From positions 620,001-684,000 of the forward strand of contig NMRA01000139.1 in NCBI GenBank assembly GCA_002633005.1: a stretch of 64,000 bases of DNA. Reading direction: 5' to 3'. The notes under the pieces were generated by a model. The model was not told where the DNA came from. It ran no database searches and saw nothing but the letters and a program-made list of their open reading frames with translations. Position 1 is the first letter of the stretch. The number at the start of each line of letters is the position of its first letter. The translations under genes and the position numbers were made by a program. Below, piece by piece: positions 4,495-37,914 of this stretch. The DNA comes from Phoronis australis (lineage: Eukaryota > Animalia > Phoronida).

Positions 4495-4558
4495 ATGATG
4501 GACCTGGATATTAAAACGCTGTGTTTGTTTGTGACTGTCACGGTCTCGTTACTTCAAG
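4495..4558 (+). CDS. Locus A coding exon 1, signal peptide [21 protein letters not shown](G)
   Basis: ATG at 4495, hydrophobic core, phase-1 donor G|gtaaga joining exon 2 in frame (G+GT=Gly, then [12 protein letters not shown], a plausible cleavage site). An upstream acceptor-like ttacag ending at 4451 suggests a 5' UTR exon further upstream. Confidence 0.8.
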
Positions 4559-10443: not shown

Positions 10444-13400
10444 GTGGCGCGCACACGCTAAGCTGCGTCGCATCCTGTATTATAAGTAGTGTGTCCGCGG
10501 ACATTTTCGCAGATGGTCAACAAATTCTAACACAGATTACTCTTTAACCTCATGTGGTTCATGAGGAAGCGTGTCTTTGAAGTTTAGCCATAAAAATATT
10601 CTGGACTTTTTTGACCACAAATGTACATAAATGAGGCCGATGACCTGGGTTACCATGTTTTGTGGACACTATTCAGAGGTGTGAGCGATCCTGTTGGCGT
10701 TTTACGATTGGTTGTCGCTTCTGGACGATCGCTAAAAGGCGATGTGTTAATGCAGTAAAAACAACACTCAAACCAGCAAAACGCACCATTTATCAAAAGT
10801 CATTTTCTAAAATTAGATAAGACAGTGGAACACTAGCCGTTTAAAACATTGTCGATGAGATACAGACGTGGAGAGTGAACCCTTGGTGTCTGAAGTTTTA
10901 CTAATTAACAACTTTATTCATTCCGACAGATCACCGATGTACTAATGATGATCCTGGCCAGCTAATCATTTTTGCAGATGTTTCGGAAATTCGAGTCATG
11001 ATGATATGACAGTCTTTCTCTCAGTTTGTCTTCATATTGCCAACATGTGATAAGTACGCTTCACCCCCAGTGATTGGGTATTTTGCGTCTGTGTTCATTG
11101 AAAGCTATGGGGTGTTATAGCTCTAGTACTGTAGTAATTTAGTAGATGAGACTAGAGAAGGCCCTAGAAACTCCATGCTGTTCCTGGTCCGTGTCATGTC
11201 GAAGTAGATGGATAAATCTGTATAAAAACACGAGGGTAATTTTGCCCGCCCTTCGATTCTTTGAAAATCAGAAAATGAACGTAGAATTGAGAGCCGCACG
11301 CTGACGTGCATTTCAATTTTCTGAAGTGCAAACTTTTGAGAATCAAAATTTTACTGACTTTTTATGCAGCCTGAAAAACAGCAAGGCATATCTGAGGCAG
11401 TTGCTCCATTTGGATATGCTTGTGTCAGGCGTAACTTGTACGTGATATCACCGTCATTTCCTAATATCCATCAGCTGTTTTGACAACACTTCTGAAGACA
11501 ATCAAAATCAGTTTATAAATTACCAAGGCAGTTATACTACAAACGACAATGAGAGGAAGCGTTATTAAAATACGTTTGATTCCCTAAACCCAAGGGTTGA
11601 CAACACGTGCATGATAAAATATCGCGATATTGTTATATTTGAACTGGCTAGTCTTTGATATAAACGTTACGAAGACACATGACAGGAAATTGCCTGTTAG
11701 ATCGGTTACTAGTATCAACATAATGTGTATACGTACAAGTGGGAATAGATTTCACTGGTGGTTCATTTCATTGTCAAAATCTACACTGTAATAGCGCCAC
11801 TGGCATCTCACTTTTAAAAGTACAAGCTCCTGCTTGAATTATTTCGTTGACAACTCTTGCATACCTACTTAAGAAGAATCTTTGGCAAACATAAATTGGC
11901 GCACATAATAAAATGTCGTTGTTGGGTGTATTATAGTCAAGTAAAGTCCACCCACGACCTGGATAATGTCTGCAGTTTCATGCGATTCAGACACTTTATA
12001 CTGCTCATTGCTTAGGGAAAATGGATGGCAGTTACCAATTGTACAACAACAAAAAACAATATCTAGGGGTGTTCTGTCAATTCCAAACAATTGAATTTTC
12101 CAATCAATCAGTTCCGTTGCCTCAATGCAACACAAATGGTTTAAGCCAAATTGACAATAACCAGAAGCGACACAAATGCACACAGTCAAGCGAATCAATG
12201 AACGCTTTTATGAAAAGAGCAATTGATGACGTTGGCGTCTCCAATGCTGTAATCGTGAGTCGGGTTTCAAGCAATACAGTTAAACAGTTGTGATGCTAAC
12301 GTGAGTGATTTGCCGTAATTTTTCCTAGTAGTACTAGAACAAACTAATTAAAATGAATTAGATGTAAGTTTTGTTGATGTTTGACGAAAGTGCCAAAAGG
12401 TGGCACTAGCTACCGGTAAAACACTTTTACCCACATCGAGTCGGAAAATCTGACAACATTTGTAAAAGGAAAAGAAAAACTAACCGTCGACGGCTGAAAA
12501 GATTTTCTCGGCAGTGGAAAGGTTTTCTTTGCGGAGAAAATGATTTTGCGTGGAGAACAGTGATTTTTTCGCCTTGTTATTTTTGTCAATGTCAGCTTTG
12601 GTCCACCGTACTTATTAGAGTGACGGCTAAAATATAAATGTTCACTAACTACACTAATATTATGCTACACGCCTGTCTAATTGTTTATAACAGACCTGCG
12701 CAACTTTGCAAGTAAGGAAAACACATGTGTCAATACAACATACATTTTCAGCAGATGTCTGGAGCAAAGTGACAGTAATTTGAACATCAGTTTTCGGTGA
12801 ATGAAATGCAAAATTAGACAAAACAGTTAAAATGCGCCCACCCTGGCGTCTGAAAGGCGATAACGATCTTCATGTTTTTACTGCAGGTTTGGTTGACGCT
12901 AATTCCCACGCCAAGAGGTTATACGACGACTTGTTAGAAGGAAGGGGCTACAATAAACTGATACGGCCCGTCGGCAACAACACGGACATTTTGACAGTTC
13001 GTTTGGGTCTCAAGTTGTCGCAGCTGATTGATGTGGTAAGTTAAGGGGAGACAAATAAAACTACTATACATTGCTTATAGATGGCGCTGCTCAAAGAGAT
13101 ACTGTGAGTTACTTTGTCTTCAGAACTAGACGAGTGCGTACGTTGGTAAATTTGACCCACACAATATCAAAAATAGCCTAGCTAAAATGTTAAACTGTCT
13201 TTATAATATAACAAATAATGTGTACTGTCTTATCGCCAACTGCTATGTCGCGTACCGAGGCATGTTGTGTACCCGAGTTCATGTATTTCCAGGATGAAAA
13301 GAATCAAATCATGACCACTAACGTTTGGCTAAAACAGGTAAGCTGCAACACTTGCTTTAGAATATAATAATTAGTAGACATTAAACTTTCACCAATTCGT

Positions 13401-16400
13401 TTATTTGATTACTTTGGCTACTAGTTGTTATTGGTTTTAATCATAGTTTCTTGCCATTTCCTTTGTACACTGTTTCGTTGCTAAACTATACCGAGTAGTC
13501 CCTCAAATGCGTTCGAAAGCGACAAGTGACAGGTTTATCAATATACCACGTTTAACATGTGTTCAAGACCTTCACCTCATGCATTACCTGTTATGCAGAA
13601 AATGTTATACTAATTTTACGATCATGAAATGGAGACACCAGTTGGTTAAAACGTGAAATAGTTCCAAGTAAATTAACCTCGGACATGAAATGGAGACACC
13701 AGTTCGTTAAAACGTGAAATAGTTCCAAGTAAATTAACCTCGGACACATAGAAACGAGCCAGAACATAAACAAGATTTCGCTAAAGGTCGAGGTCACTTG
13801 GAATATCTCGAGTTCTTTGATGCCACTCAACAGTTTTTGCTGATTTTTGACTTAAAAAAACCAGCACCTTCAACAGTCTGTTCCACAAGATCTACAAACC
13901 CAATTATTTTGTCAAAGACTTAACCTTGCACAGACCGTATTGAAAGATTTCAAAGTCAATTTCTTTCCCGTCTACCGGAAGTGCTGCCGGCTACTTGAAA
14001 GCGAGCAAGAGTACATGAAATTACCAGTTTTCACCTCAAGGCCGCAATTTACATCATTACGAACCGAGAGACAGTGCAGTCATGCTGCCAAAGCCCTCCA
14101 AATTACAGAAATCAAGCGGAAAGTGTATATCGACCAGCCTGATTTTTACAAATCCAAATATTTCCTGCTAAATTTCAACTGCCCGCTTAAATGCAGTAAT
14201 GGTTTAACGAAAGCCCGACTGAGCAAAACGTGGGTCGAGGGCCAACAGCTGGTAATCTTTCACTGAGAACAGACTCTAAAAGCATTCAGCAAAATTTTTA
14301 AACTGTCCAACCCACCCAGCAGGCGTCAATTTTCAATGAATTTGGGGCAGTTAAATTTAACCGCTTCTCAAAATAATAAGTACCACCTTTTGTATCCTCA
14401 CATTTCCCCTCAGAGGAGAACGTTATCTCCGCATGGGCGAACTTCAGTCTTACGGCCAATCATTCTCTAGCATGAAATCACTAGACTTGAACAACTGAAG
14501 CCCGCATATGCCAAAGTAACGTTCACCTGCCGTGAGGAATTTGAGCCTACGGACATTCCCGAGGTGTTCCAGAGGTCAAGGTGAACAATTCTGACAGTCA
14601 ACCCATACTGCAAGCGTGGCAAGTTAGAAAGAAAATTCAGTTACAACAATAAGTCCAAACTGATCCCAGAGTGGCAATTGGGAAGGGGTGCTATCAGACT
14701 TTGAAATTTTGGTCGCCGTAGGCTCTGTGTGTGAATATTTTCTGGCAACGATTGTCTTATGTAAGTAGCATAGCATAGATGTATACCCGGAGGTTCCACA
14801 TGCACAAGTAAATCATCTCAAATCTGTCTTTAAATTGTTCATGTCAGACAGTAATGTCCTGGATTTGCCATGGCTATCATGAAGTCAGTGACAGCCACTG
14901 GCCGGTGATGGTTTGATTTTTTTATAAATGGAACAGGGTTTTACTCTGTTCCGTTTTACGCTTTCACGGGGCGCTTTATATCAGTTCCCTTTTACGTGTG
15001 CCATTCGCCTTGTTTTCTTGTTTTGAGCATGCCAAGTACCCCACCTTAATTACCTCAACACCTCTGCTAATGCCAAACATTCCGTAAGTAATGTTGTTTT
15101 CTAATTCTATTTCTGTATCTTAACTTACTTTCGACTAACACGCGCTAATACGTAATTGCCATTTTGTCTTATTAAATGTAAATAGTAATTTGAAAGTGAG
15201 TTCTCGAAACAAATGTAGGAAGACGTTATGAGCAGTCTTGTGCACAAGATCTTTTCCTAACGCTAGGGTGTCCTGGTGTTCATTCACTGAGTACTCCACA
15301 GCCTGTGTTCAGAACATACGCGTTTCAAAACCTTAAAAAAACGAAGCAACCTTTGTGATTTGGGTCACCCAGGGGCCCGTTCCAAAAAAAAAATTGACTT
15401 GAAATTTTAGATTTGTCTTTGCTAAGTCAGTTATTTTTTTGAAACGGGCCCAATGATATAATATTGCAGTCATCTCTGTTCTTATGAAATTAGAACTGAT
15501 TACGCACAGGCTTGAACAAAACTGGCATGTCCATACTGTTTAATATCCTATCCAATCAGTTGCTTGGGTTCATTTCAATTCCAAGGCACTAGCTATGGCC
15601 TGTGAATGCAGTTTTGTAAATAGTACATGATATATAGCGGTTTTCAGTAACAAGAAACTCTTGTCTCAAATTTGCTAACTTTCTTTAATGCTACCGCAAG
15701 GAATGGGAAGATTACACTCTCAAATGGGACCCGGCAAAATATGGTGGGGTGGACATATTGTATGTCCCATCTGAGAAAATATGGTTGCCGGATATAGTCT
15801 TGTACAACAAGTAAGGCCTCGTCTAGCCAGATTCTTTTGTTGTGGCATGACAGTACGCTTGTTGTAATATTTTGTTTACGACTGCAAGTTTGCGACCACG
15901 TGAGAGGATTAAAGGTGAGTTAGCAGCGTTACCAGCTACATGTTTATAGGGAAACCGAAACCATGTTAATTTCTGGGGCAGGGGGAGGGGATTCTGTGCA
16001 TTATGACACGCGTCACTTAGTATATTGGTAGCCAGTATCCGTCGGGATATCACCAGGCCTAAGCCGTTGACATCTAGCCATTGCTACAAAATTGTGGATC
16101 GTCGACTCTTATTTCTGTTATTTAACAAGGTTTTGCTCAATAGAATTTGCAATTGAACATGGTACTGGAACCGGCAGAGAAATCTGGTCGCGATGCAAAG
16201 TAAGTATACATGTAAACTAAAACACAACTAACCACGTATGCGTTCGGAATTTCTGCGTTCTTCCTTCTAAACACCTAACATAAGAGTTTACGATATAATC
16301 ATGAGACATTGGCACGCGGTACCAAGACGTAAGTATCGTGTAAATTCTTCAAGACGAGACCTTTTCTAACGACCCGAAACATCGGAAGGTGTCCTTTCAA

Positions 16401-19400
16401 AAAGCGTGTGGCTGTATCGCGCATGAGCAATCCCCCGCCCTGACCTACCCCTTGGAACTACAGCGCCCCGTGCAGTGCTTTCAGAAAACAATATTCAGAT
16501 TTCTATAAATGACGTGTATATACAGGAATGGTACGATCACAATTTGAAGTGGGACCCTAAAGACTACGGCAATGTGGACCTGATCTATGTCCCTTCAGAG
16601 AAACTTTGGCTCCCGGATGTAGTGCTGTATAATAAGTAAGTCCGTGTGTTGGTTCTAAGGACGCGACTGTTTCCAGTTTTAAACAAACGGCATTTCTGGT
16701 CTGCCGTAGGTGTTGAAAGTGGTATATCATTTAACGTCACTTTCATTTGCTACTTGTAGTGCAGATGGATATAAATTGGCACACGTAAGCGGTTGGTGCA
16801 CACAACAGACGTGTGACGACAACATGTATTATCCGTTGTTGACATGCAAAGCCTGTGGTCACTGCTCTGTGCATGACATGTTAAAAAGCTTTCTATGTAT
16901 GACAACTAAGCCAACTTCTTAGAAAACTTGTGAATGTTTAGAATAACTATTTTACCAAATTTTGTAATGGTAGGTGCATTTATTTTTCCCGAAGAGAGAG
17001 TAACAATTACGAACTCATCTTGCATCTCTAGAACCGCCATCTTCATCTGGATGGAGGTGTTTACTAACTTCCAATTCAGTTGTTTTCAGGTTCCTTCATT
17101 TCAGTCTCGTTGATTACACCTGCTTGTTACGTGGTACGGGATTGCCTCGTGATCATCGAGAAAGCAAATGGAGATACAAAGAGCAAACTCTCATTCAAGC
17201 TTGCAAAACATCCAGACAGCAGCGCCTTGCGCAAAAGCTAAAACTACACTCGCTTCCATGGCAAAATTGCAGCACTGATTTACGCGGCTCAGATAATTAG
17301 GCAAAACTCAACATTCGGCAATTTATTGCTTCTAAGCCCAGTGCATTCAAGTACATGTCGTAATCGAATTCATCAGAATATAACCCGCCTAAATTTAACA
17401 TCATTTGTCTGCCCTCTCCATTGTGAAAAGTATTATTTTTTTACCCGTCAGCCCAAGAAAGAACACATTGTGTACTTTTGAAAATTTTCATCAGACGTGA
17501 GTTTCGGGAACCCAGATCTGGAAAACTATCGTGTCTCTTGGCTATGTTCTGATGTAATTTAGTGTTCTCGTCGTATTTAACTAGAACTGATTCAAGCTAC
17601 TCTCGTTCTTTCTTTGTGGAATGGCAATAGTTGAGGTAGACCGCGTAGAAAATATTTACGTCGTTGATCATAGACTTTCTAATCTGTTGTCAGAAATGTA
17701 AATGAGTTTTCAAATTTTTGTTACTAGATGCCGATAAAAGTATTTTGCAAAATCTGCTTTTGATAGCCAAAACTAAAGTTGAACCATTTTTCAAATTTAT
17801 ACAACAACCTGCTTTCGTATTTAGTTGACCGGCTCTATGGCATGACCATCATATTTTGCCATTGCGGCTTTCAAATTGCGCTAATGAACTGTTTTACATT
17901 GGATGTAGTTCGAGTTAGCATCAAAGCATTCGTGCAACATGTAATTTGTTGTATTTCAGCCGTTCGCAAGGGGATGTTCCCATTTCTCTTTGTCTGTCCA
18001 CTGCTTTACAAAGCATGCGCGCGAGCTTCTACAGGCATTCGTCTTCTAATGTTTGCAGCAAAATGTGTTGAATAGACAACTTATACCTATAGAATTGATG
18101 TATATGTATAGCTCTCACTAATGCACATCTAGTCAGACTTCTATTTTTGCACAAGTGTCTAGTAAATTTAGCCATGTTGTACATGTGATTGATGTATGAT
18201 TTTACTATAGTTGCTATGTTTTTTGACTGATAGCAGAAACGTTGTGGTAGAATTCCCATTGCATAGATTTGAGGTAAAGTTAACATGTAGGAGTTTCACT
18301 TTAAGAAAAGAGAAATTCCCTCTTTGAGCTCATGGTGTTGCCCTGCCATTTGAGTGTAACACAGTGTAGTTTGGCTGCAGCCCGTTGGTCCGACAGGCCG
18401 CGTAATCGGTAATTTTACGTTTCGGAAAGTTTAACACATTTGCGCTGAACCTGATTGGTAGTGAAGGTCGAATAGCTGTTGCATTTGTAGCTATTCTGTT
18501 TGATTTCGGAGAAGTAACGTGGACTGAACAAGGAATCAGCTCATTACCATTACTAAAGCCAGAAGGACCAGCGAGCTAGCTGAACCTCACATGCTTTATT
18601 CAAATTTTTAACAATACATGTAGTTAGTGAATTCGATAAATTTAAACCAGTATGTTTCTTCGAATTTCCCGCTCAAAACCATTTCCGCGTGAGTCGGATT
18701 TCCGATTTTATCGAAGGGATATTTCTGTCAGACTTCCGGGCTGTAACCTAAGAGAGCCGATGCGATATGCTTGAAAAAGCATGCTGTCTGTTTGAATGCG
18801 CACAATAAATTTTTCAGTGCGGACGGAAATTACGTGATCTCACTTATGACCAAAGCGACACTTACACCAGATGGAAAAGTCGTATGGGAACCGCCCGCCA
18901 TTTACAAATCTTCATGTACGATTAACGTTGAGTTCTTCCCGTTCGACGAGCAGACTTGTGATATGAAATTCGGAACGTGGACTTACGACGGCTCTCAAGT
19001 CGACCTCAAACATAAAGATCGGCCCAATGCGACGGGACCAGTGAATATTACTCATGGTATTGACATGTCAAGCTATTATGTCTCAGTAGAATGGGACGTT
19101 CTTGACGTTCCTGCGAGAAGAAATGTGAAAACGTATCCCTGCTGTCCAGATCAGCCCTATCCGGACGTGACATTCAAAGTGACCATGCGCAGAAAGACAC
19201 TTTTCTACACGGTCAATTTGATTATTCCCTGCGTGGCTATATCTTTCCTCACTGTCCTTGTATTTTATCTCCCATCCGACAGCTGTGAGAAGATTACTCT
19301 CTGTATCTCCATCTTGCTTTCTCTCACTGTGTTTTTCCTCCTGCTAGCCGACCTAATACCTCCTACTTCGCTCGTGGTGCCGCTTGTAGGCAAGTATCTA

Positions 19401-22400
19401 CTCTTCACCATGATTCTAGTTACGCTTTCCATTATAATCACCGTAATCGTCCTGAACGTGCATTACCGTTCTCCGGCGACGCACGTGATGTCGCCATGGG
19501 TGCGAAAAGTGTTCCTACACATACTTCCTAGGCTGCTCCTAATGAGACGGCCTTCATTGGACAAGGACAAATATGCTACCAATCGTCATAGCTCGTGCAA
19601 TGGAGTCGATTCGCACAAACCTAACCAAGAAATTAGTCGAGATACTACCTTCGACAACATGCAGGCACGTCGAGGTTATTTGCCAAGCGGAGGACATCAC
19701 GAGACGGAAAGGCTGCTTCGGGAAACTGACCCGGGTTTCCAGAGAGCTTTCTCACCGGAAGTGTACAGAGCCATGGAGAATGTGCGATTCATCGCAGAAC
19801 ACCTGAAGAACGACTACAAGGAACTGAATGTAACTATATGTTGACATTTTTTTTAGTTTTGGTAGACGTCTGTGACTAGCAACTTCCAGAATTTAAAGAC
19901 AATGTTTTTAGGATGTGTGTTAACTCAATTTCAGGAATGTTTTGCCGTAGATACATATGACATTTACCACTTACCAATATAAACTTACTTCCACTTTTCG
20001 TAAACTTGAGTTTCTGCTATTTGTATAAATTAAGGTGAACACCACAGCACGCCAGCAAAATGTGTAATGTTTGGTGATTTGAGAACGAGGGTTATTAAGT
20101 CTCCTTTTATTTTTACTGCGTAACTCTTGTTATGCTTTAGATTTAGCCGGTGTTGATTTTTCATTTTCACATCCAACAACGCTTGGTTATATTACGAGTA
20201 AATCAACAAATGTGTGTGGTCAATATGCCAACGCTTTAGTTGTCTAATTTAATGCTTTTCTATCCGCTTTTTGTAGGAGATTGAAGACTGGAAATATGTT
20301 GCTATGGTGATTGATCGATTGTTTTTGTGGATATTCACCACTGCTTGCGCGGTTGGAACATTTGGCATCATTCTGCAAGCACCGACGCTCTACGACGATC
20401 GTAAGGCCATAGGAGAGAACGGGAAGATTGTTGACTTTACGTAGTTCACTTTGAAATAAATCTTAAAAACTAATGGGATATAGCTTGCGACTGGTCGGAG
20501 AATGATATACATTGCGACTGGTTGGAGAATGATATACCTTGCGACTGGTCGGAGAATGATATACCTTACGATTGGTCGATGAATAAAACATTAGAATTCC
20601 TGAAATAATGTAGTGACATTCGGGTATACTAAACACATGTGTTGTCGTTTAAAGAGACGAGGCTGAATACGAGATGAAAAACTAGGGAATGTGTAAACAC
20701 TAGACTTAAATTATTCGACTGAATAGGTCGAGAATGGCTATTTACGGTCACGGAGAAAATTGTAGAAATTGTAGCAGTGTCGCTTCTTGATTAATAAAGA
20801 TGAACATACTTCAGGTTTTTGTGTTCTACAGTATCCCTCGAGCCTAAGAAGCCGTCATTGATTGGAAAGAAACGCACACACATTCGCAGTTTATAACATT
20901 TCGATACATGAATTGCAAACGCCAGTTTAATTAAACGCGCTAATAGGGTAACAGTGTTGATATATTTCCTTTGTTCAACAATAATTTGTGGAGATTGACT
21001 TCGATTTCTCTGTGTTCCGGATACCGCGGTTTCGTATATGGTCCATTATATTTTCTGTTGTTCGATTAGAACTAACATACAAGAAATAAAGCGACACACC
21101 CCCGGAAATATTACGGCAAAGGCGATGCGCAGCGTTGTCGGGAAATTCTCTCGTTTAGGTTTTCAGGCAACACTGGCTGCTGGTCATGATATGCCTCTCA
21201 AGTTGAACAATATTTCCTACTGTATTTGTGTATTTGCGAAGCTGACAACTTCTGTACCAGCTAGCTACTGGATGTATATAACCACTGTAGATATCCAATG
21301 TAGACATCCACAGCAGATATCCGCCCAATGAGGAATACCCCCCCAGAGGTAGACACTGACTGTCGCAACTATTAATTGTAAATAGTTATAAACGTCTGGT
21401 AGCGATATTTTTGGCCCTCAATTCTAGTAAGTAGGTACTTAATTGTTGTTTGTTGACTGTAACTAACGTATTTATTGTAATATCTACACTTTGTGTTCAC
21501 TAATTTCATAGCTTTATAGATTTTTGCTTGAATAAAACAATATGTATCGGAATGTGTTGAAACCTAATCTTAGTTGAGCAGCATTAGTGTGAGTGGAGTT
21601 CGTACAATTTAACTTCCGGTGATATGATTTTTATTGATTAGATTTTAAGCTTTTTAGGTTAGAGTACATAAATGCATAGTTGTTGGTTTAAAATTAGACC
21701 ATTTAGAAGAACAGCTTTACGTATACTGTAGTAAATGTCTATGTGTAATCAACCTTGTCATGTTAACTGTGTTAGAAAAAGTGCAAAGCAGGTCTACGTA
21801 GTTCTTCACCAGACTGCTATGGAATTGAATACGAGTTTCCGTTCTGGCAACAACAAGCCTTCAACCTCATGAATTAGTTGTTATGCCGTTACGTCGATTT
21901 TTCAGCGCAGACGGCAATTACGTGGTAACCTTAATGACGAAAGCAACCCTGCACCCGGATGGCAAGGTCGTCTGGGAGCCACCAGCCATTTACAAGTCCT
22001 CGTGCACAATAAACGTAGAATTCTTTCCGTTCGATGAGCAGGAATGCGATATGATGTTTGGCGTTTGGTCGTACGATGGCACTCAAGTCGCTCTAAAACA
22101 CGTCGACTATCCTGATGAGGTCGGGGAAATAAGCATTGAAAAGGGAATTGACATGAGCAAATACTACTATTCTGTAGAGTGGGACGTACTGGATGTTCCC
22201 GCGCAAATCAACATTAAGAAATACCCTTGTTGCGAAGAACCTTTCCCAGACGTTACCTTCAAGCTGACTATTCGTCGCAAAACCCTTTTCTACACTGTCA
22301 ATTTAATCATCCCGTGCGTGGCCATATCATTTCTGACCGTTCTTGTGTTTTACCTTCCATCTGACAGTGGAGAGAAAATCACTCTATGTATTTCCATCTT

Positions 22401-25400
22401 GCTCTCGCTTACCGTCTTTTTCCTGCTCCTTGCCGACCTTATTCCGCCCACTTCGCTCGTTGTTCCTCTCATCGGCAAGTACTTGTTGTTCACAATGATC
22501 CTGGTCACATTGTCAATTCTAGTGACTGTTGTTGTTTTGAACGTGCATAACCGGAAACCAGACAATCACAAGATGTCACCATGGGTGCGCAAAGTTTTTT
22601 TATGCATTCTGCCAAAAGTGCTTCTTATGCGAAAACCTACCTCAGACAAGTACAAAAAGTTGCACGAGAAGTTCCCATCATGCAATGGAATCAACATCAG
22701 AGACCCCTATCGAAGGGTCGGAAGACGACTCAGCCAGCACGACCTTTCGTTCGAAGCTTTTGAGAACAACGGTTACAAACCAATTGGACATTACCCAGAG
22801 AGTGTCTTGATCCCGGAAGAAGAAATGGAACTGCTGACGCGCGTTATGGGACCAGATGTCTTGAAGGCTATGGACAGTGTCAAATTCATCGCCCAGCACC
22901 TTAGACGAGACGACGAGGAAGAACACGTAATTAAATTTAAAAACATATTTCATCTTAAAGTAACAGGAGTCTCAGTGCAGGCTTTCGGGTAATTGTACAG
23001 CCATGTTCAACGTTCACGTAAACTGTAAGGACAAAATCGAAATTTGCGAAAATTTCAACGAAAAAAACAAAAACACGTTTCAAGTTTCACTAAATGTCGA
23101 CAAAATCTCATCAATTGCTGCTCTATGCTCTCGAAATCGCGGCAACTTTCCTTGCAGCTGTGCATATGTATATTGGCGACTTGGCGAAATCACATCACAT
23201 TAAATTCACCCTAAAATTAGTAAATGCTATGTTTTTTTCGACGAATGTTCAACTGCAGCATGTGAATTGCCATATAATTTTGCCATGATATTCGTCCATG
23301 CTTGATGGAGGCCGACGGAGTTCTGTGAAAGTCTGTAATGTTTATTTTGAAAACCAATGTACTCCGCTTTCGAATAAGATTCAACCCATCTTCCTCGGAC
23401 TGGTTACAAAAATGCATTGGTTAGTGACGTTCTTGCACCTATTGAAAACAACAATCCGACAATATATTAAACACGACTTTGTCAATGGAAGCAAGTTTCG
23501 AATTTTGTACTTGAAAGGATTTATTTTTATTGTCAGTCATCCGTTGAAAACGTACTTCCGGTTATTTTTTCAACATATACATGTACCTGTAAATACAGTT
23601 GTCGCATGGACAATTTATGGGAGCTACAGAGCAGACAGGTTGATCGTCCATAGAGCCTGTTTCGTCGATGGGGGACCTTAATGAGTACATAGCGTACACG
23701 TATCTTCAAACCTCCATATTTGACTACTTGCATCCGAATGGTGCTTTCGGTTTTAAAAATCGATAAAACGTTGATGTAAACACGAGTTACTGCTACAGTA
23801 TTCTCGTTACATTCCAGGAAATGAAAGATTGGCAATACGTTGCCATGGTGATTGACAGGTTGTTCCTATGGATTTTCACAACCGCTTGCTTCGTCGGCAC
23901 ATTTGGTATAATTCTTCAAGCCCCGGCACTGTACGATGTTCGCAAGGCTATTGGGGGTATTGGCGAAGATGTTTTGGAACACTAAACAATAGATTACGAA
24001 CATAGTTACTTATGGCAAAAACATATATTACTTGAATAAGAAGATGGACAGCCGTTAAACAGCCTCGTCGGTTTAGCTCAAATGGAGAAACCGGAAGAGA
24101 CTGAGTGGCTAAATTGATTTTTTAAAGTTTGATGTCTTCGTCTTGGTCTAACGAACGCTGCGTGGATTTTAAAACAAAGAGTAAACCCAGATTTTCTGTT
24201 TAGTCTCGTCAGAAAACAGCCTGCTCTGCGTCCCCCGTACATTAACTTCTGAACTACACTTTTATGAAGGAGAATTAGCGAAGAAAAGGAAAAATGAAGT
24301 TAACATGCTGAAATAGACCCACGTGTTTTCATGCAAATCAGTGCTGCTATTACCGAATTTTAACCATTTTGCAACTTCCAACTTTCTATTTTCCATAAAT
24401 TAACGCATTGACTCTATAATCTTTTTTTACCAGTCAAGGATCACGATGGAAATGTTTTCTAAATAAATGGTCGTATCTATTGTGTTCTATACTTCATACT
24501 AGCATTGATTCTTCGCCAAAATACTAATACATGAAAGGTTGAATTTTTATTTATCCTTTTAATGAGCAAAACAACAAATGTCTAAAATGTCCTTAAAAGC
24601 AATAACTGACAACAGTTACGTCGCAATCACTTATCGTGATTTTGGCTCCGCTGAAGTTGCATTGTCCCTTGTTTACCTTAGTTGCTAAGAACAAAAGTTT
24701 GAATTGGGTCGTTTACTCTCATAAAATTGATCTCAAAATATATCAAGCAATGCGTACATGCGCCATTTTCGAAATAGCAAATTTATGGTTGCCAATCCAA
24801 GAACTCTAATGAAGATTGATTGATTTTCTTGTTGGTTGCCAATCCAAGAGCTCTGATGATGATGATCGATTTTCTAGTTGGTAATGGACATAGCGTCCTA
24901 TCACGTAATAATACGAGACCAAATTTATGAAAGTGATAGGCCTAATTCGGTTTTTGTTTTCAGCCAGATAAATAGGGCAATTCGTCACTTTCCGCGAAAG
25001 TTTCATCTGAAAAAAATCGTTTTTCTTCTTTGGCCTCTTCACAAATATCGGCTAGGATAAGACCACGTGACCTCACTGGTTCCAGCAGCCGTTCATCATT
25101 TTACACTTCTTGGTGACAGGGTTTTTGATTTTAGAGTATTGGCTTCCGTTCACATCACGTGATCCGTCTTAGAAGAATAAGAGGTAGTGTGTAATCTAAT
25201 ATACAATAGAAACAAGGTACTGCTTTGAAAAGTGCTTTGACGTAATGTTTGACCCTCGAACCAGGTGTAGAGATCAACTATATTTAATTACATGAAATTG
25301 TTTGTGAGATATTGCAAAACAGCGACAATTCTGTAATGGCAGCATTGACTTGCATAATACCAAATGTGGGACATTTTTTCGCAATGTTAACATCATTTTG

Positions 25401-28400
25401 TCATTTCCCTACCTAATTTCCTTCACAAAATACAATTAAGAATTTAATGGCCGGAGTGCACCACGGGCCATATTCCGACATAACTGAGATCCTAAATTAT
25501 ATTTGCGAAAGCAACACTTCAGTGGCAGTCCTGTATTGCGCTTTGGCAACTGATCTTAACATTTATTGGGGCTTACAGAGCATGTACATAATAACTTATT
25601 TTGTAAGGCGTTTTATTTGAAATTGTAGAAAAAGTATATTTCCATCACTGCATATAGTTATATAAATATTTATTATTATAACGGATGTGTATTTATAATT
25701 ATTGCACATTAACATAGGTGTTTATATTTTACTGATATTATTAAGCCATGGCGGTCGTTTTGCGTTTAGAATACATTAATCGAAACACATAATACATGGA
25801 AATGTACGTGACATGTTCATTTGGAATAAAGTTAGCTCGTAACCTGTCGTGGTTCTTTATAAGATATGGTATCTACCATAGTTGCAACTGCAATTGTAAC
25901 ATTTCTTACTTTTGAGAGACTGGCACACTCGACTTCGAATGAAATAAAGGTTACATGAGGTTAGTTAAAGGCTGTCCTATTAAATGTCAGATAATGTTAT
26001 AGCTGAGAATGATATGACCAATTATGTGGAAAATTGGGACGACGACTACAGTAATTTGATTTGTGAGTACATCATAAAGTGTTAGGCTTATGAAGTGCTG
26101 TAGGTTCAATGGAGTAGCTGGTGTTTTTTTTTTTACTTCTCTCCCTTTAGCGATGGCTACTGTACTGCACGTTTATTTCGTGAAATTCAAGATGATGCAA
26201 AGTCACGTGCCTGTGTTATCAATGTCATCGTTAACTGGCGTTTCAGTCGAAGAACCTCGAGTATTTTCATTGACTCGAATTATCCTTCGAAGGTAATTCA
26301 TTCTGCGCATGTGCGAATGTCAGCAAAGGAATTTGGTCACGGTACGGTCTTGCTTCGGCATAACAGCTCTTAAAATCGTACGAGAGGTTTGTTCCTAGTG
26401 TAATTCTTTGTGTACTGTTAACTCTTGTTAAGCGTGCTATCACAAGGTTATTCGACCGCTTTTTCCAATTTGAGAGGTTGTTGACTTTCCATGAAGATTG
26501 AATTTCGCGCATGCGCAAATACGAAACTCCTCTGAGGGGATTCGGAATATCTCCAGTATTTCCAAGGCCTCAAACCTCCCCTCGGAGATGAACGTTCTGC
26601 GCATATGTGCGAATATCAGTCATATGACAGGTCATGTGATTTTCAATCTGTGCTATGATTAGCTGTGTGACTGAAGGTCACACATGCGCAGATAACATTC
26701 GTCTCTGGAAATAATATTTGTGGCTACGAAAATACCTGAGGTGTTCCGGTTGCTGAAAGCTTGAAAAAGTGTTCCGCAGACGCAAAAGTCTCGTGAAGGA
26801 AGCTAGAGTGATCATATTCTTCGCTTGTAACACATGACATTACATAACGAAATCTTTCTTGGTCTAACGGTTTCGAAAGGTTCGCGCATGTGCAGAACGT
26901 AAGCCAGAACACACCGGTGTAACGTGGCTAGACATCGGTCTCGCTTGGCCAGGAGCTATTGAGATTCTTCAGTTCTCCATTACAGTTTTGATTTGTAGGA
27001 CATATGCACAAGTTATGGTTTGCTAAGACACCATTCACGGATATACTGACACATCACTGGTATAACAGTAATACCCCATGTGCACTAATTTTCCAAACTT
27101 TAAGCAGGATTTCAGATGATATCGTGTGGGCACCTGAGACACATGGTTGTTCTTAATGAACTACAGACTCTCCTCAAAGTGCGGTCATCACATGACGTTT
27201 GCTTGTCATTGACTAAACTTTGTGATATATATCCTTTAGTCCATGATCGCGTCGAATTGTTTTGCTGTTCTTAATTTGTTTTACCGCAAAATTTACTCGC
27301 AGCACTCACAAGATGTAAATTTTTGTAGCTAACTGGTTTTCTGCAGGGTACTCTGAATAGTTATTCCGTGTTTAAACACAATACTATTTTACTATCCAAG
27401 GTTCTCGTGGACACTTTGTGCAATCTCTAAAGGTACTACGGTAGCTAATGTACTTGTTACTGTTTGCAAGCGCGCGACTTTTGCAGCCAGGTGATCCCAC
27501 ATGTATATACTGGAAGTGAGCATTTGTCGAATCGTCAGTGCGTGTTTTCAAATCTCGCTTCGCGAGACTTTCTTGCCATGGCGCCACCATAGGTGGGCGA
27601 ACACGTAAGTGTACTATGCGGGCTGTTGCATCTGCAGTTGTTGTTGGCTTGTGTGGTGTAACTGCTGGCTGGACATGTGTTCGCTTTTTATGGTCAACAA
27701 CCCGCATGTAAAACGCTTTTTGTTGTGGATGTGCAGTGATTGAATCTGTAGGCAAACTGTATCCAAATGTATGCACGGAACGCTGACATTAATGCTTGTA
27801 TCACATTTAGAATGCATTTAGTAAGTCAATGTTGTATATTCCCAGTACACTATTGCCATATTGGTTAACTTGGAACAGGAAAACGTTTACCGTCAGCTTA
27901 AAGAAATTGAATTTGTTGAAGAATTTCACATCTTCGCATGTACTTATGGAAATCATGGGAACATCACTTGTTCAGAATTCTGTGTTTATCCAACACATTG
28001 TCTCGGTTAACACTACCAAGGGATGACGCTTGAATTCAACTGTTGTGTTGTGCTCACTAACCCGTTAACGTTTGTTTGTATTGGTTGACGCTTCTCAACC
28101 CACCTTGGAAGGGTGGCATACTGTATGGGGGGNNNNNNNNNNNNNNNNNGGGGGGGAATTATGTTGAAGAAGTGTAACTTTTGATCAAGCAGTGGATGAC
28201 ATCCTATGCAGCCACAGAAAGGGAAATTCACATGCGTTGCTTTTACTTAACAATTTGAATTATTATTCTGAATCATCTCTTTTTAAGTTGATTATAGTGA
28301 ATTACGTGTAGTGTTTAAGATGGCTTTGAGGTAGATTTGGCTTACAACATACCCATCAGGCAGACGTCTGTCCGACATCTGTCCGACATCTGTCTGACAT

Positions 28401-31400
28401 CTGTATTATGCCAAGTATCTGTGTTGTCAGAAGTAGAACCTATGAAATAAGTACGTGGAAGGATCAACTCACAAGAAAAAACTAAATTGAAATATAGTGC
28501 CAAGTTTCATACCATGCGATAAAGTGCCAATTTACCAACCGTGCGCTTTGTCGGAAAACGGCTAAATCTGCTACAAACCCGTTTTTGCTGAAAACAATTT
28601 TCAAGTTTGACCACGTAACGTTGAAAAATGCCGCTTACTTTAATTGAAAGTCGCTCTAAGATTGAAAAGTGCTGGGTATTCGTCGTTACGTTGGAGTGGA
28701 CCTCTGTGGTCATTTTATGCACCTATCATAGGCTCGAGCAATAAGGAGCTGTCGGTTCTTCCTTAATCCAGAGCTCACTTCCCATCTTAGCAAGGTACAA
28801 TCTGAGACAAGTTATACAACTGCCAGTTGCCCAAATCAAACGTTGTTTTTGGCAGTGCGGGAACGTATACCCCATCTTCAAGTGATATTCTGATGACCAA
28901 TGTTGGACAGACACGCTTCTTGGGATTGTCGTCAAAACTAGACCCATGAGAGGGCGGTGTGAACTTCTCTTAACCCCAACGTTGGTAACGTTTGCTGATA
29001 AATTTCGAGAAATAAAATGAGAAATGTTTCAATCTTGACACATTTGTTGCTGGGTCTAGAATTTGGGTTCAGCCACTCTTGAACGCGTATAATTATTTTT
29101 CAGTCTCTTCACAGCACGTTTTTGGTTGCCAAATGCCGTCGCATAATACCAATATTATTTAGACTTCGTAGAAATGGTTTTAAATTGATGGAATAGAAAG
29201 ATTGCTCGATAATTTGGTTCTTGCATTTTAAGAAATATCTGACGGTTGAGCGCACTTAGTTTAGCAGCTTAAAAAGATTTTTTTTTTGGAAAATGAAGCT
29301 TATCACTACTAATAATCGGTTTGTTTAGACTCGTTTTCGTATTATTTTGTTTTAAGGTGACGCAACTTTCAAGTGCACAGCATGTAACGCGTTCAGTGGA
29401 AGATCTAGCAATGATTTTGAACCGTCTTTCAAGCATAACGTGCCTGGAATAGCTTTGTGTGCCTACAGATGTTTTTGTTTCGAAACGTCATACTTGATCT
29501 GCTGAAAACAGGCTGCCAGTAATTGGCTTTTGTTCAAACACATACTGCAAGCTTCTCGCTAGTACATGTAGTCGAGGTTTTTTGGCAGAATGTCTGGTCC
29601 CATGTAACCCTGAACAGTTTACACCGCTCTCTCCTGGTGATGTATATTGTCGTACATAGCCGAGTGAATGAAGACCCGTTTTCCCTCTTAGTTTGATACA
29701 TGTACTTCTGAACTCTCTGGAATGTCTCTAGTGCCTCTCTTGATGTTGCTTAGAGATGATTTCGTTTTGCTTGCACATTGCACTTTTAATAAATTTAGCC
29801 AATTATTCAACAAGTTATACTTATGTTTAGATCTCATGTTGTAAATTATATTATGCAACAAGTAAATTGTTCACATACTTGTAGAGTACTTTTTCTGATA
29901 TACTAGTCAATTCCCTCGGCTATGTGAAGGAATTTTATTCAGGAGACAAACAGAAAGACAAAATCACTTAGGGAACCTATTCGGAAATCTCAATTCATGT
30001 GACATGATTTTGCCAGTATTAGTAGGCTTGGAACTTGCAATACTCACTGCTTTGTTACGAGCTGTAAAATTGAATTCATGCTAGTTATTATTTTGTAGTG
30101 CCGACGGTGACTACGTTGTGACCCTGATGACCAAAGCAACACTTTATCCAAACGGGTTAGTCGTCTGGGAGCCACCTGCCATCTTCAAATCGTCCTGTCT
30201 GATCAACGTCGAGTTCTTTCCTTTTGACGAACAGAAGTGTGACCTTATTTTCCTCGTTTGGTCCTATGACGGTACCAAAGTTAGCGTGAAACACGCTGAC
30301 AGAGCTGATGTGGACGGCGAAGTGGATATTGAAAGGGGCATTGACATGTCGTCGTATTATAATTCAGTCGAGTGGGATGTGCTCGATATTCCCGCGAGAA
30401 GAAACGTGGAATACTACCCGTGTTGCCCGGAACCGTTTCCTGACGTCACGTTTACTTTGACGATTCGACGCAAAACCTTGTTCTACACTGTTAACCTTAT
30501 TATACCCTGCGTGGCTATATCCTTCCTCACGGTCCTCGTGTTCTACCTTCCATCAGACAGCGGTGAGAAAATAACGTTGTGTATCTCCATTTTGCTCTCG
30601 CTGACCGTGTTTTTCCTGCTTCTTGCCGATCTTGTGCCTCCGACGTCTCTCGTTATCCCGCTCATTGGTAAATACCTACTATTCACTATGATTCTTGTGA
30701 CGTTATCAATTGCAGTAACTGTTGTTGTGCTTAACGTTCATAATCGAACACCTGCAACGCACGTGATGTCGCCTTGGGTTCGGAAGGTCTTTCTGCACGT
30801 CTTGCCTAAACTTCTTCTAATGCGGCAGCCAGCCATGGACCGTACGACATCAAAGCGGGATTATTACAACTTCGCTACTAGCAACGGAGCTCCAGCTGGC
30901 GAATCACCAATCAGTAAAGACGTGAACAGTTTCGATCTCCAGTACGAGACGCTCACACCACACGCTCACAAAGAGACAGGGAAGAAACATGAGCGGGAGC
31001 GGTTGCTCGCAGACACTGGTCACGATCTACGCATGCGCACGTTGGCACCGACTCTACACAAAGCGATGCAAAACGTGAAGGTCATTGCCGATTTCATGAG
31101 AGATGAAGAACAAGATGATAACGTGAGTTCACTTACTGCAACAATATAGAGCGCGCCGCAGCCCGAGATTCTTCATTTTGAGAGAAAACCAAAATCTCGC
31201 ACAACCTTACCAAGTCACGCGAGTGTCTCGCGAGTGCTATCGGGAGCTTGGAATGCCTTAAAATGACAGCCACTGAAGTGACTGATTTACGTGTTTGGAG
31301 TGTCAAATTTTGGAATTGAACTCACTGTTTCCGTTTCGTAAGCGAAAATTTTTGCCGCATTTGCGATCTAGGAAACCAAAAAAATTATCTTACGCTCCGC

Positions 31401-32087
31401 ATTGCAATTTTTGGAAAATAATTGATCAAAGGAACAAAGTATCTGAGAGTATACTCAAAGCTGCTACTTACCGAGAATATATTTTACAAATTTCTTCCAA
31501 TCCATGATGCGCTACTGATAACATGCCTAATGGTAATTGTGAAGTAGGAACGTAATATCAAATTCCTGCTTAAGTCACTTTACATGATTTGTTTGTTCAA
31601 GTTTTCTATGTTGAAATTGGACTCGTGTGATATACATATAAGTTCGGAAAGCCATGTCCACATGAGCAATGATTAATGATGTTGCAAGAAGTTGTCTTAA
31701 TAAATCACTCGACCAGTTTTGGACATGCACTTAAATCAAATGCGCACCATGACGTTTCGGGCAATGTTAAGTCTAAGGTATCTCGGAGAGTACATGTATG
31801 TGATTTCAAGATAAGTTCAGTGCGTTTGCACCCACTGTTATACTTAGGCTACTGGCGAATTCCTGAAAAATGCTTTAGATTCCAAACGAGTTTGTCGTTT
31901 TGATTTACTCACCATTTCCTTCCTCTTGTTTCAGGAGGTGAACGAATGGAAGTACGTTGCCATGGTGATCGACAGATTGTTTTTGTGGATCTTTACCACA
32001 GCTTGCTGTGCCGGTACATTCGGTATAGTTTTTCAAGCCCCCGCCTTGTACGATGATCGCACACCCATTGCGGGCTCCGAAGGTTGA
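4495..32087 (+). CDS. nAChR alpha subunit locus A (heteromeric neuronal type) with 3 shared 5' exons, 2 alternative exon 4s and 3 alternative exon 5+6 cassettes; predicted products ~515, 518 and 514 aa
   Basis: Spliced frames are open: 4495-4558, 12887-13035, 13293-13337, [15701-15810 or 16526-16635], then [18818-19829+20277-20444] or [21906-22926+23818-23985] or [30099-31122+31935-32087]. Cys-loop (C-x13-C with FFPFD), vicinal CC in loop C and TM1-4 are present. The 6-exon layout with 45- and 110-nt exons matches neuronal CHRNA2/3/4-type genes. Confidence 0.9.
6735..6999 (+). repeat. Tandem duplication, unit ~130 bp x2
   Basis: tactaatagtaacatctgatcatcgactgg...acattcgactccgaatgtgttttactgaatt at 6735 and 6867. 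Confidence 0.85.
7247..7815. repeat. Diverged inverted-repeat pair (possible old MITE)
   Basis: tggttccctacgtgcc..tagccagcacgca (7247-7276) matches the reverse complement of tgcatgctggcta...ggcacacagggaacca (~7774-7815). Confidence 0.4.
10392..10442 (+). repeat. (TG)n microsatellite
   Basis: ~25 perfect TG units. Confidence 0.98.
12887..13035 (+). CDS. Locus A exon 2 (N-terminal helix: [16 protein letters not shown]...LKLSQLIDV)
   Basis: ctgcag| acceptor, GTG|gtaagt donor, canonical nAChR N-terminal motif YNKLIRPV. Confidence 0.95.
13293..13337 (+). CDS. Locus A exon 3 (45 nt, [15 protein letters not shown], loop D)
   Basis: ttccag| and CAG|gtaagc boundaries; conserved 45-nt nAChR exon. 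Confidence 0.95.
13623..13746 (+). repeat. Tandem duplication, 61 bp x2
   Basis: catgaaatggagacaccagtt.gttaaaacgtgaaatagttccaagtaaattaacctcgga at 13623 and 13684. Confidence 0.9.
15373..15451. mobile_element. Short Harbinger-like MITE / hairpin
   Basis: Terminal inverted repeats GGGCCCGTTCCAAAAAA...TTTTTGAAACGGGCCC; same termini as the element at 47936. Confidence 0.65.
15701..15810 (+). CDS. Locus A alternative exon 4a (110 nt, [36 protein letters not shown], loop A)
   Basis: cgcaag| acceptor with a branch-point-like gctaac ~25 nt upstream; AA|gtaagg phase-2 donor; WxPDxxLYN motif. Confidence 0.92.
16526..16635 (+). CDS. Locus A alternative exon 4b (110 nt, [36 protein letters not shown], loop A)
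   Basis: atacag| acceptor, AA|gtaagt phase-2 donor; paralogous to 4a with identical length and phase. Confidence 0.93.
18818..19829 (+). CDS. Locus A cassette 1, exon 5a (loops E/B/F/C, Cys-loop, TM1-TM3, intracellular loop)
   Basis: tttcag|TGCGGAC completes Asn-Ala-Asp-Gly; lies within ORF 18771..19844; YPCCPDQPY loop C; AAT|gtaact donor. Confidence 0.95.
20277..20444 (+). CDS. Locus A cassette 1, terminal exon 6a (TM4: [20 protein letters not shown]...KIVDFT*)
   Basis: ttgtag| phase-0 acceptor, conserved [10 protein letters not shown] motif, TAG at 20442-20444, AATAAA at 20455/20582/20793. Confidence 0.95.
20484..20584 (+). repeat. 27-bp minisatellite x3.7 in the cassette-1 3' UTR
   Basis: cttgcgactggtcggagaatgatatac head-to-tail, no spacers. 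Confidence 0.9.
21906..22926 (+). CDS. Locus A cassette 2, exon 5b
   Basis: tttcag|CGCAGAC phase-2 acceptor; lies within ORF 21883..22992; YPCCEEPF loop C; CAC|gtaatt donor. Confidence 0.95.
23818..23985 (+). CDS. Locus A cassette 2, terminal exon 6b (TM4: [20 protein letters not shown]...DVLEH*)
   Basis: ttccag| acceptor, TAA at 23983-23985, AATAAA at 24462/25825/25943. Confidence 0.95.
24787..24880 (+). repeat. Tandem duplication ~47 bp x2
   Basis: ggttgccaatccaaga.ctct.atga.gat repeated. Confidence 0.7.
26270..26905. repeat. Cluster of direct and inverted copies of a (T)GCGCATG(T/C)GCGAA-containing repeat
   Basis: Copies at ~26300, ~26505 (inverted), ~26575, ~26880 (inverted); a related copy at ~14395-14450. 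Confidence 0.55.
28133..28149. other. Assembly ambiguity (17 N) within a G run
   Basis: gggggg-N17-ggggggg. Confidence 0.95.
28366..28404 (+). repeat. 11-bp tandem repeat
   Basis: tctgtccgaca x3+. Confidence 0.75.
30099..31122 (+). CDS. Locus A cassette 3, exon 5c
   Basis: ttgtag|TGCCGAC phase-2 acceptor; overlaps ORF 30118..31149; YYPCCPEPF loop C; AAC|gtgagt donor. Confidence 0.95.
31935..32087 (+). CDS. Locus A cassette 3, terminal exon 6c (TM4: [20 protein letters not shown]...IAGSEG*)
   Basis: tttcag| acceptor, TGA at 32085-32087, AATAAA at 32841/32911. Confidence 0.95.
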
Positions 32088-37555: not shown

Positions 37556-37914
37556 TCAGTCGTATATTGTGGGGCAAGTCACCCAAATCCCTATGGTGCT
37601 CGCAGCTGTCAACACAGCGAATACTATTAGAAGAAACCTATCGATAACCATAGCTGCCCACTGCCAGTCGTCAGAGACTGCCTCAGAATCCTCGCTTTCC
37701 TTCACGTAACTTGTGATTGAACGCAACTCGCGCAAAATGGCACGCAACTCGTTGATCATTAGCTCCGCCTGCCGTTCTCTTGAGTGACTCCTTTTGGTAG
37801 GGAGCTGGACAACCTCTCCTTCATCGCGTTCCATGATATTCTGCAACGTGATGTCTTTTCTCTCGGGCAAATATGTTGGCTCCTCACTGTCGTCGCGTCC
37901 TTGTTGGAGGATAC
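37556..37914 (-). CDS. Gene B terminal exon (MA helix, TM4)
   Basis: ttcaag|GTATC in frame with ORF 37556..37870; DWQWAAMVIDRFLL; TGA stop. Confidence 0.88.

What the first reader, a model, noticed from the sequence alone, without database searches (positions are those of the whole stretch)
19188..30561. All three cassettes show purifying selection, so they are not pseudogenic leftovers
Seen: across the 32 codons [32 protein letters not shown], cassettes 1 and 2 differ at 20 codons, all synonymously (hand count). Cassette 3 encodes the same peptide. The ~1-kb ORFs have no stops or frameshifts, and their introns show no evident similarity. Inference: the duplications are old and each cassette is translated, despite lacking its own N-terminus. 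This is the strongest internal support for the shared-5'-exon model.
Basis: seen in the sequence. Interest (0 to 1): 0.7.

Follow-up and report, generated by a model that had tools for sequence, protein, structure and literature searches.

The report
One gene, three acetylcholine-receptor subunits
In a marine invertebrate, one nicotinic acetylcholine receptor gene splices a single shared front end onto any of three old, tandemly duplicated back halves, so one gene likely makes three different channel subunits, a layout described for nematode GABA and glutamate channels but not found for this receptor family in my searches.

Summary
The hand count is right: cassettes a and b differ at 20 of 32 codons, all silently. 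Over whole cassettes synonymous sites are saturated (pS 0.76-0.83) and pN is 0.22-0.23. That shows old duplication under constraint, but it cannot by itself prove present use or shared 5' exons. RNA reads do: GT-AG junctions join the single exon 1-3 block, through alternative exons 4a/4b, to each of the three exon-5 copies, each followed by its own last exon. No second N-terminus lies between the cassettes. The cassettes form one clade, ordered (a,(b,c)), next to bryozoan subunits; tandem copies in Lingula, Owenia and Tubulanus are whole genes. All three keep the Cys-loop, vicinal cysteines and the cation-pore glutamate. Cassettes b and c share changes at near-invariant loop-B positions, including loss of the gating lysine K145, which suggests altered pharmacology or an accessory role (untested). 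The 3' UTR of cassette b forms a 166-pair hairpin with clustered A-to-G changes in RNA, probably ADAR editing. The layout matches C. elegans unc-49 and avr-14 and fly 3' cassette genes; five literature searches found no nicotinic case. Real, RNA-backed, a new variant of a known architecture.

The parts
4495..4558 (+). Shared coding exon 1 (signal-peptide-like N-terminus)
   Evidence: In frame with exon 2; its last 30 nt are the loose end before exon 2 in X5, X7 (4 reads), X8 (21 reads)
12887..13035 (+). Shared exon 2
   Evidence: Only plus-strand copy in the window; exon 2>3 junction 6, 3, 38 reads
13293..13337 (+). Shared exon 3 (loop D tryptophan)
   Evidence: Junctions to 4a and 4b
15701..15810 (+). 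Alternative exon 4a (minor; up to loop A)
   Evidence: 3>4a 4 reads and 4a>5c 4 reads from 2 starts, X8 only
16526..16635 (+). Alternative exon 4b (major); 10 of 36 residues differ from 4a
   Evidence: 3>4b in X5 contig and 4, 1, 30 reads
18818..19829 (+). Cassette a exon 5a: loops E, Cys-loop, B, F, C, TM1-3, intracellular loop
   Evidence: 4b>5a 6, 6, 20 reads; Pfam PF02931+PF02932
20277..20444 (+). Cassette a last exon 6a (TM4, stop), UTR follows
   Evidence: 5a>6a in X5 contig and 1, 3, 24 reads
21906..22926 (+). Cassette b exon 5b
   Evidence: 4b>5b 2 reads (X7), 6 reads from 5 starts (X8)
23818..23985 (+). Cassette b last exon 6b
   Evidence: 5b>6b 4 reads X8; spliced loose end in X4 contig and 5 X8 reads
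24259..24515 (+). Left arm of a long hairpin in the 3' UTR of cassette b; A>G cluster in RNA
25171..25431 (+). Right arm of the same hairpin; A>G cluster in RNA
30099..31122 (+). Cassette c exon 5c
   Evidence: 4b>5c in X5 contig and 9 reads from 9 starts (X8); 4a>5c 4 reads
31935..32087 (+). Cassette c last exon 6c
   Evidence: 5c>6c 1 read X6, 19 reads X8

Best explanation
This is one nicotinic acetylcholine receptor alpha-subunit gene whose shared exons 1-3 and alternative exon 4a or 4b are spliced to one of three tandem 3' cassettes, each likely yielding a distinct full-length subunit of 514-518 residues. Shown: gene anatomy, in-frame GT-AG junctions to all three cassettes, saturated dS with low dN, one clade ordered (a,(b,c)). 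Inferred: the 3' half (exon 5, intron, exon 6, UTR) duplicated twice in this lineage; the choice of cassette is an alternative-last-exon decision coupled to each cassette's own polyadenylation signal, which makes the choices mutually exclusive; the cassette supplies most of the binding site, the pore and the intracellular loop. Inferred with less certainty (about 0.55): a is the conventional ACh-gated subunit, while b and c, which lost K145 and share S148V, T150S and Y198F, gate poorly on their own and act as modulatory or accessory partners in mixed pentamers, as UNC-49C does.
For: (4 runs, 2 studies; about 18-19% of each raw run read): 4b>5a 6/6/20 reads, 4b>5b 0/2/6, 4b>5c one X5 contig and 0/0/9, 4a>5c 0/0/4, all at the predicted bases and nearly all on the sense strand; each exon 5 joins its own exon 6; all 6 exon combinations are open; no exon 2, 3 or 4 homologue between 19830 and 30100 by tblastn (best E 0.93) or by an HMM of 46 N-termini, which does detect the N-terminal exons of both minus-strand paralogues; one X1 contig of 19,340 letters appears to span the N gap with 5,983 letters where the window has 6,031; free-ratio omega 0.009-0.10; 7 of 9 listed coding variants are synonymous (binomial p 0.0007); cassettes monophyletic 99/97, b+c 99/93. 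K145 is K/R/Q in 143 of 143 homologues but M and I in b and c. AATAAA follows each last exon.
Against: No full-length read links exon 1 to a last exon; isoforms are assembled from short junction reads. 4b>5a and 4b>5b are seen in one study only, and 4b>5b rests on 8 reads. 4a>5a and 4a>5b were not listed. No protein-level evidence. dS is saturated, so omega values are bounds, and cassette c alone is borderline without the loop (p 0.057). No coding variant was listed for cassette b, and 49 variant rows were not shown. The homologue set is the top hits of two searches and is biased towards conserved residues. Y198F is common among homologues (27 of 141). No genome was held, so paralogues elsewhere were not examined.
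Confidence: 0.9

Rival explanations
1. Three ordinary tandem genes; the 5' exons of copies b and c are missing from the assembly or too diverged to see.
For: Whole-gene tandem copies are the norm in relatives (Lingula, Owenia, Tubulanus copies each have their own N-terminus; mollusc arrays, PMC6896357 passages). A 17-N gap lies between b and c.
Against: Reads join the exon 4 block upstream of cassette a directly to 5b and 5c. Only 1.46 kb without N separates 6a from 5b, and it holds no exon 2-4 homologue. An X1 contig appears to span the gap with no extra sequence (X1 may be the assembly's source).
Confidence: 0.02
2. Cassettes b and/or c are recently dead or marginal: the junctions are read-through splicing noise and the mRNAs yield no useful protein.
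For: Cassette b is the least used (6 of 39 exon 4>5 junction reads in X8). b and c have longer branches (0.52, 0.67 against 0.33) and changes at near-invariant loop-B sites. The UTR of b appears heavily edited, which may cause retention or decay (recalled). An ORF dead for 0.01 substitutions per site stays open about 30% of the time.
Against: b and c together take 19 of 39 junction reads in X8. The loop-B and loop-C changes V148, S150, F198 are shared by b and c despite saturated dS, so they were kept, not decaying. 3 of 4 listed variants in c are synonymous (p 0.04). Death older than 0.05 substitutions per site is excluded (open ORF in at most 0.5% of simulations).
Confidence: 0.07
3. The present layout is as described, but it arose from whole-gene tandem duplicates that later lost their 5' halves and were captured by the first gene's promoter, not from 3'-only duplication.
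For: Relatives duplicate whole genes. Intron and spacer similarity is erased, so breakpoints cannot be read.
Against: No remnant of exons 2-4 lies between cassettes, and two clean losses ending at the same exon boundary would be needed. This concerns origin only and is compatible with the best explanation's mechanism.
Confidence: 0.2

Closest known systems
C. elegans unc-49 GABA receptor locus (PMC6920096, passages seen; the original 1999 paper was not held)
   Same: [quoted passage not shown]
   Different: unc-49 is a nematode GABA-gated chloride channel; this is a cation-type nicotinic alpha subunit of a lophotrochozoan, so the layout is most likely convergent. This locus adds a 4a/4b exon pair upstream.
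Nematode avr-14/gbr-2 GluCl (PMC8841521, passages seen)
   Same: Alternative splicing gives subunits that differ in the C-terminal channel region; one form (AVR-14A) gives no homomeric channel.
   Different: Two forms, glutamate-gated chloride channel; the forms differ in channel and intracellular domain, whereas here the cassette also carries loops B, C, E and F.
3' tandem cassette genes such as Drosophila PGRP-LC, CG42235, pip (PMC6191721, passages seen)
   Same: Duplicated 3' terminal cassettes, alternative splicing coupled to alternative polyadenylation, mutually exclusive isoforms.
   Different: Unrelated proteins. Competing docking/selector RNA pairings were not found here: best duplexes upstream of 5b and 5c were no better than controls.
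Insect nAChR alpha4 (exon 4/4') and alpha6 (exons 3, 8) (PMC2064938, PMC12309072, passages seen)
   Same: Tandem exon duplication and alternative splicing diversify nicotinic subunits.
   Different: Single short internal exons are swapped; here about 390 of 515 residues are swapped as a two-exon terminal block. Insect alpha4 exon 4 covers loop E and the Cys-loop, not the stretch of 4a/4b.
Lophotrochozoan alpha subunits of the insect alpha8/beta2-like group (Watersipora, Bugula, Lingula, Lineus, Tubulanus, Owenia)
   Same: 55-67% identity to the cassettes; nearest in the tree are two bryozoan proteins (100/96). Lineus isoforms X1/X2 differ only in the exon-4 stretch (8 columns), like 4a/4b.
   Different: Their tandem copies are annotated as whole genes with separate N-termini; no same-species pair with a shared N-terminus and different C-termini appeared among 4,489 pairs of 143 proteins.

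Membership tests
Nicotinic acetylcholine receptor alpha subunit | Ligand-binding and transmembrane domains of Cys-loop channels | tested here: met
   PF02931 and PF02932 above cut-off in all three exon-5 products; best solved match human alpha-4, E 1e-92
Nicotinic acetylcholine receptor alpha subunit | Cys-loop C-x13-C | tested here: met
   both cysteines in a, b, c
Nicotinic acetylcholine receptor alpha subunit | Vicinal cysteines in loop C (defines alpha; recalled) | tested here: met
   YPCC in a, b, c
Nicotinic acetylcholine receptor alpha subunit | Aromatic box W55, Y93, W149, Y190, Y198 (muscle numbering recalled) | tested here: inconclusive
   Complete in a; Y198F in b and c, also in 27 of 141 homologues
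Nicotinic acetylcholine receptor alpha subunit | K145-Y190-D200 gating triad (PMC2266616 abstract); functional, not naming, feature | tested here: not met
   Met in a; K145 is M in b and I in c against K 136, R 6, Q 1 of 143 homologues
Nicotinic acetylcholine receptor alpha subunit | Cation-type pore (glutamate at -1' before TM2; recalled) | tested here: met
   E in a, b, c and 143 of 143 homologues
Nicotinic acetylcholine receptor alpha subunit | Gated by acetylcholine | not testable with these tools
   Needs electrophysiology
unc-49-type locus architecture | One block of N-terminal exons | tested here: met
unc-49-type locus architecture | Several tandem C-terminal blocks, each with all TM segments and a stop | tested here: met
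unc-49-type locus architecture | Shared block spliced to each C-terminal block | tested here: met
   Junction reads
unc-49-type locus architecture | Isoforms co-assemble in one receptor | not testable with these tools
   Not tested; needs co-expression
UNC-49 protein family (GABA-gated chloride channel) | GABA/anion-channel sequence | tested here: not met
   All listed hits are nicotinic receptors; works like unc-49 in layout, is not a member
3' variable region controlled by competing RNA pairings | Docking site pairing with a selector before each cassette | tested here: inconclusive
   best 60-nt duplexes -39 and -38 kcal/mol before 5b and 5c against -38 to -42 in three controls; needs covariation across species

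The most novel reading that the evidence does not exclude
This is the first nicotinic receptor locus with an unc-49-like layout, evolved convergently: one promoter yields a conventional alpha subunit plus two gating-altered alpha subunits that co-assemble and tune or redirect ligand response, with an ADAR-edited UTR hairpin setting the amount of cassette b or passage to cassette c.
Probability: 0.35. Interest if true: 0.7.

Novelty: new variant of a known kind. Interest (0 to 1): 0.52.

Why it matters
It shows a second, independent route to the 'one N-terminus, several channels' design in the Cys-loop superfamily, now in the cation-channel branch and outside nematodes. It gives a natural set of chimeras with an identical N-terminus for testing how loop B and K145 set gating and whether such isoforms co-assemble. 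It also warns that 5'-truncated nAChR 'gene fragments' in lophotrochozoan annotations may be expressed cassettes, which would change gene counts.

Tried and rejected
No whole genome was held, so paralogues elsewhere and congeners were not examined. Hidden exons 2-4 between cassettes: none. The run search listed no holder on record as RNA; this blank was not used as evidence, and the raw-read runs were laid instead. X4 was labelled 'DNA?' but holds a spliced 5b>6b end and uneven depth, so I read it as RNA and did not use it as a DNA control. Hybrid joints (5a>6b, 5a>6c, 5b>6c) and 4a>4b were not listed at the 3-read threshold; low depth makes this weak. Coupling of 4a with cassette c (4 reads, 2 starts) is too thin to claim. 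Same layout in relatives: Lingula P0088, Tubulanus P0035 and Watersipora P0016 start short, but the first two have full-length cluster members with their own N-termini and P0016 is unresolved; Owenia P0149 differs only by an aberrant tail. The 2 of 4,489 pairs that passed the shared-N-terminus filter are bugs of different species. A search with the b-specific region found 12 proteins, best 65% identical; the 7 inspected keep K145. Docking-site search gave nothing above controls for 5b and 5c. Insect alpha4 exon 4/4' is a different exon. Earlier findings of this scan: none. No structure or complex prediction was run.
Full report
Observation. The peptide is encoded at 19188, 22273 and 30466. Codons differ at 20 of 32 (a-b), 18 of 32 (a-c) and 18 of 32 (b-c), all synonymously. 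Over whole cassettes (exon 5 plus exon 6; 386-391 codons) Nei-Gojobori pS is 0.76-0.83, at saturation, and pN is 0.22-0.23; pN is 0.07-0.08 in TM1-TM3 and 0.54-0.60 in the intracellular loop. Introns show no similarity at blastn E<=1e-3.

What selection can and cannot show. A three-taxon codon model gave omega 0.012-0.014 with dS at the upper bound (all codons) and 0.009-0.10 without the loop. Fixing omega=1 on one branch was rejected for a, b, c with all codons (p 3e-8, 9e-9, 7e-6), but without the loop p was 2e-7, 8e-4 and 0.057. A decay simulation (assumed indel rate 0.1 per substitution) left about 30% of ORFs open after 0.01 neutral substitutions per site and at most 0.5% after 0.05. So sequence alone excludes old death, not recent death, and says nothing on whose promoter is used. 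Polymorphism adds a present-day signal: of the 9 coding variants among the 40 rows shown (49 rows not shown), 7 are synonymous and 2 change residues in the intracellular loop (binomial p 0.0007). They lie in a and c; none was listed for b.

Anatomy. The protein is a nicotinic receptor subunit. The window holds one exon 1 (4495-4558), one exon 2, one exon 3, two copies of exon 4 and three copies of exons 5+6, all GT-AG bounded; all 6 combinations are open and give 514-518 residues. tblastn with the exon peptides and 11 homologous N-termini, and an HMM of 46 N-termini, found no exon 2-4 homologue between 19830 and 30100, while they detected the N-terminal exons of the minus-strand paralogues. 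A 17-N gap lies at 28133. One X1 contig of 19,340 letters carries 23700-25900 and, 5,983 letters later, a 130-letter match to exon 6b that I read as exon 6c; the window has 6,031 letters there, so the gap hides nothing large (X1 may be the source of the assembly).

RNA. Four runs were laid on 12780-32700: X5 (contigs, RNA by guess, study P2) and X6-X8 (raw stranded RNA-seq, study P3, about 18-19% read). Junctions at the predicted bases, as X6/X7/X8 reads: 2>3 6/3/38; 3>4b 4/1/30 plus an X5 contig; 3>4a 0/0/4; 4b>5a 6/6/20; 4b>5b 0/2/6; 4b>5c 0/0/9 plus an X5 contig; 4a>5c 0/0/4; 5a>6a 1/3/24 plus an X5 contig; 5b>6b 0/0/4; 5c>6c 1/0/19. The loose end before exon 2 is exon 1. In X8 the 39 exon 4>5 reads split 20:6:13 among a, b, c. 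No 4a>4b or cross-cassette joint was listed. X4, labelled DNA?, holds a spliced 5b>6b end and is probably RNA. The shared-5' model is therefore shown at the level of junctions; full-length molecules and proteins are not.

Origin. A maximum-likelihood tree of the cassette region used 3 cassettes and 64 of 143 fetched homologues (42 named, 22 unnamed; the rest, mostly redundant arthropod and partial sequences, were left out). The cassettes form one clade (99/97), ordered (a,(b,c)) (99/93), sister to Watersipora and Bugula (100/96); branch lengths are 0.33, 0.52 and 0.67 (midpoint root, no test_one_clade run). The animal is thus a lophotrochozoan, probably a lophophorate (inference). Lingula, Owenia and Tubulanus expanded the same subunit independently as whole genes. 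Lineus isoforms X1/X2 differ only in the exon-4 stretch, so the 4a/4b pair may be older than the cassettes or convergent.

Function. All cassettes keep the Cys-loop, W149, Y190, vicinal cysteines, D200 and the -1' glutamate (muscle numbering recalled). TM2 is identical. Cassettes b and c replace K145 by M and I (K 136, R 6, Q 1 of 143 homologues), S148 by V (S 141, T 2), T150 by S (T 141, S 2) and Y198 by F (Y 113, F 27 of 141); c also has L at G147. K145, Y190 and D200 form a triad whose conservative mutation strongly impairs gating of the muscle receptor (PMC2266616, abstract). Because b and c share these changes across saturated dS, I infer retained divergence, not decay, and propose that they are low-efficacy or accessory subunits. 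Cassette a has C at the -2' glycine (G in 143 of 143 homologues), unexplained.

Mechanism of choice (inferred). Each last exon is followed by AATAAA signals and UTR coverage. Using 5a commits to 6a and cleavage; reaching b or c needs the exon 4 donor to skip upstream acceptors. This matches 3' tandem cassette genes (PMC6191721, passages). A docking/selector search gave nothing above controls for 5b and 5c.

Edited hairpin. Arms at 24259-24515 and 25171-25431 form 166 pairs at -146.5 kcal/mol, against -67.1 +/- 6.4 for 100 shuffles and -96.3 for the best other of 210 tiles. Of 28 A>G rows among the 40 rows shown (6 not shown), 26 fall in the arms, 15 of them paired in the predicted duplex. Frequencies vary from 1 of 13 to 20 of 20 reads in X8, whose spectrum is A>G 32 against T>C 3; X1 shows no G at these 26 sites. 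This fits ADAR editing; DNA of the same individual is lacking.

Comparison with what is known. C. elegans unc-49 makes three GABA receptor subunits from shared 5' exons and three 3' blocks (PMC6920096, passages; the 1999 original was not held). avr-14 makes two C-terminal forms (PMC8841521, passages). Insect nAChRs swap single internal exons (PMC2064938 and PMC12309072, passages; PMC1919356, listing only). The lophotrochozoan nAChR survey (PMC6896357, 12 of 15 passages) describes tandem whole genes and fragments; 'splic' occurs once and phoronids and Lingula are not named. Searches found no nicotinic locus with this layout; the library lacks most subscription papers, supplements were not read, and a public annotation of this genome may already list the isoforms.

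Verdict. It is a new variant of a known architecture: unc-49-like 3' cassettes in a nicotinic alpha gene. Interest 0.52.

Noticed in passing
window 24259-24515 and 25171-25431: Long imperfect hairpin in the 3' UTR of cassette b with clustered, strand-specific A>G changes in X4, X7, X8; probably ADAR hyper-editing.
   Followed up: yes
window 15701-15810 and 16526-16635: Duplicated exon 4 used alternatively (4b major); Lineus isoforms X1/X2 differ in the same stretch.
   Followed up: partly
window 19284-19286: Cassette a has Cys at the -2' position before TM2 where 143 of 143 homologues have Gly; no RNA difference listed there. May affect conductance.
   Followed up: partly
window 37556-45639 and 57879-64000, minus strand: Two further tandem nAChR genes of alpha7-like exon layout (recalled), each with its own exon 4 and vicinal cysteines: whole-gene duplicates beside the cassette gene.
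   Followed up: partly
window 20477-20576: Short tandem repeat (about 27 nt unit) in the 3' UTR of cassette a with more copies in RNA reads than in the window (back-joints): length polymorphism or assembly collapse.
   Followed up: no
window 53892-55800, minus strand: Decayed reverse-transcriptase (LINE-like) element, RVT_1 E 1e-5 below cut-off, between the two minus-strand genes.
   Followed up: no
window 14405-14463 with 26494-26540 and 26655-26707: Inverted copies of a dispersed repeat in intron 3 and between cassettes b and c (79% complementary); could pair over 12 kb, but the element is repetitive in the runs.
   Followed up: no
run X4: Labelled 'DNA?' but carries a spliced exon junction, A>G changes and uneven depth; likely RNA.
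   Followed up: partly
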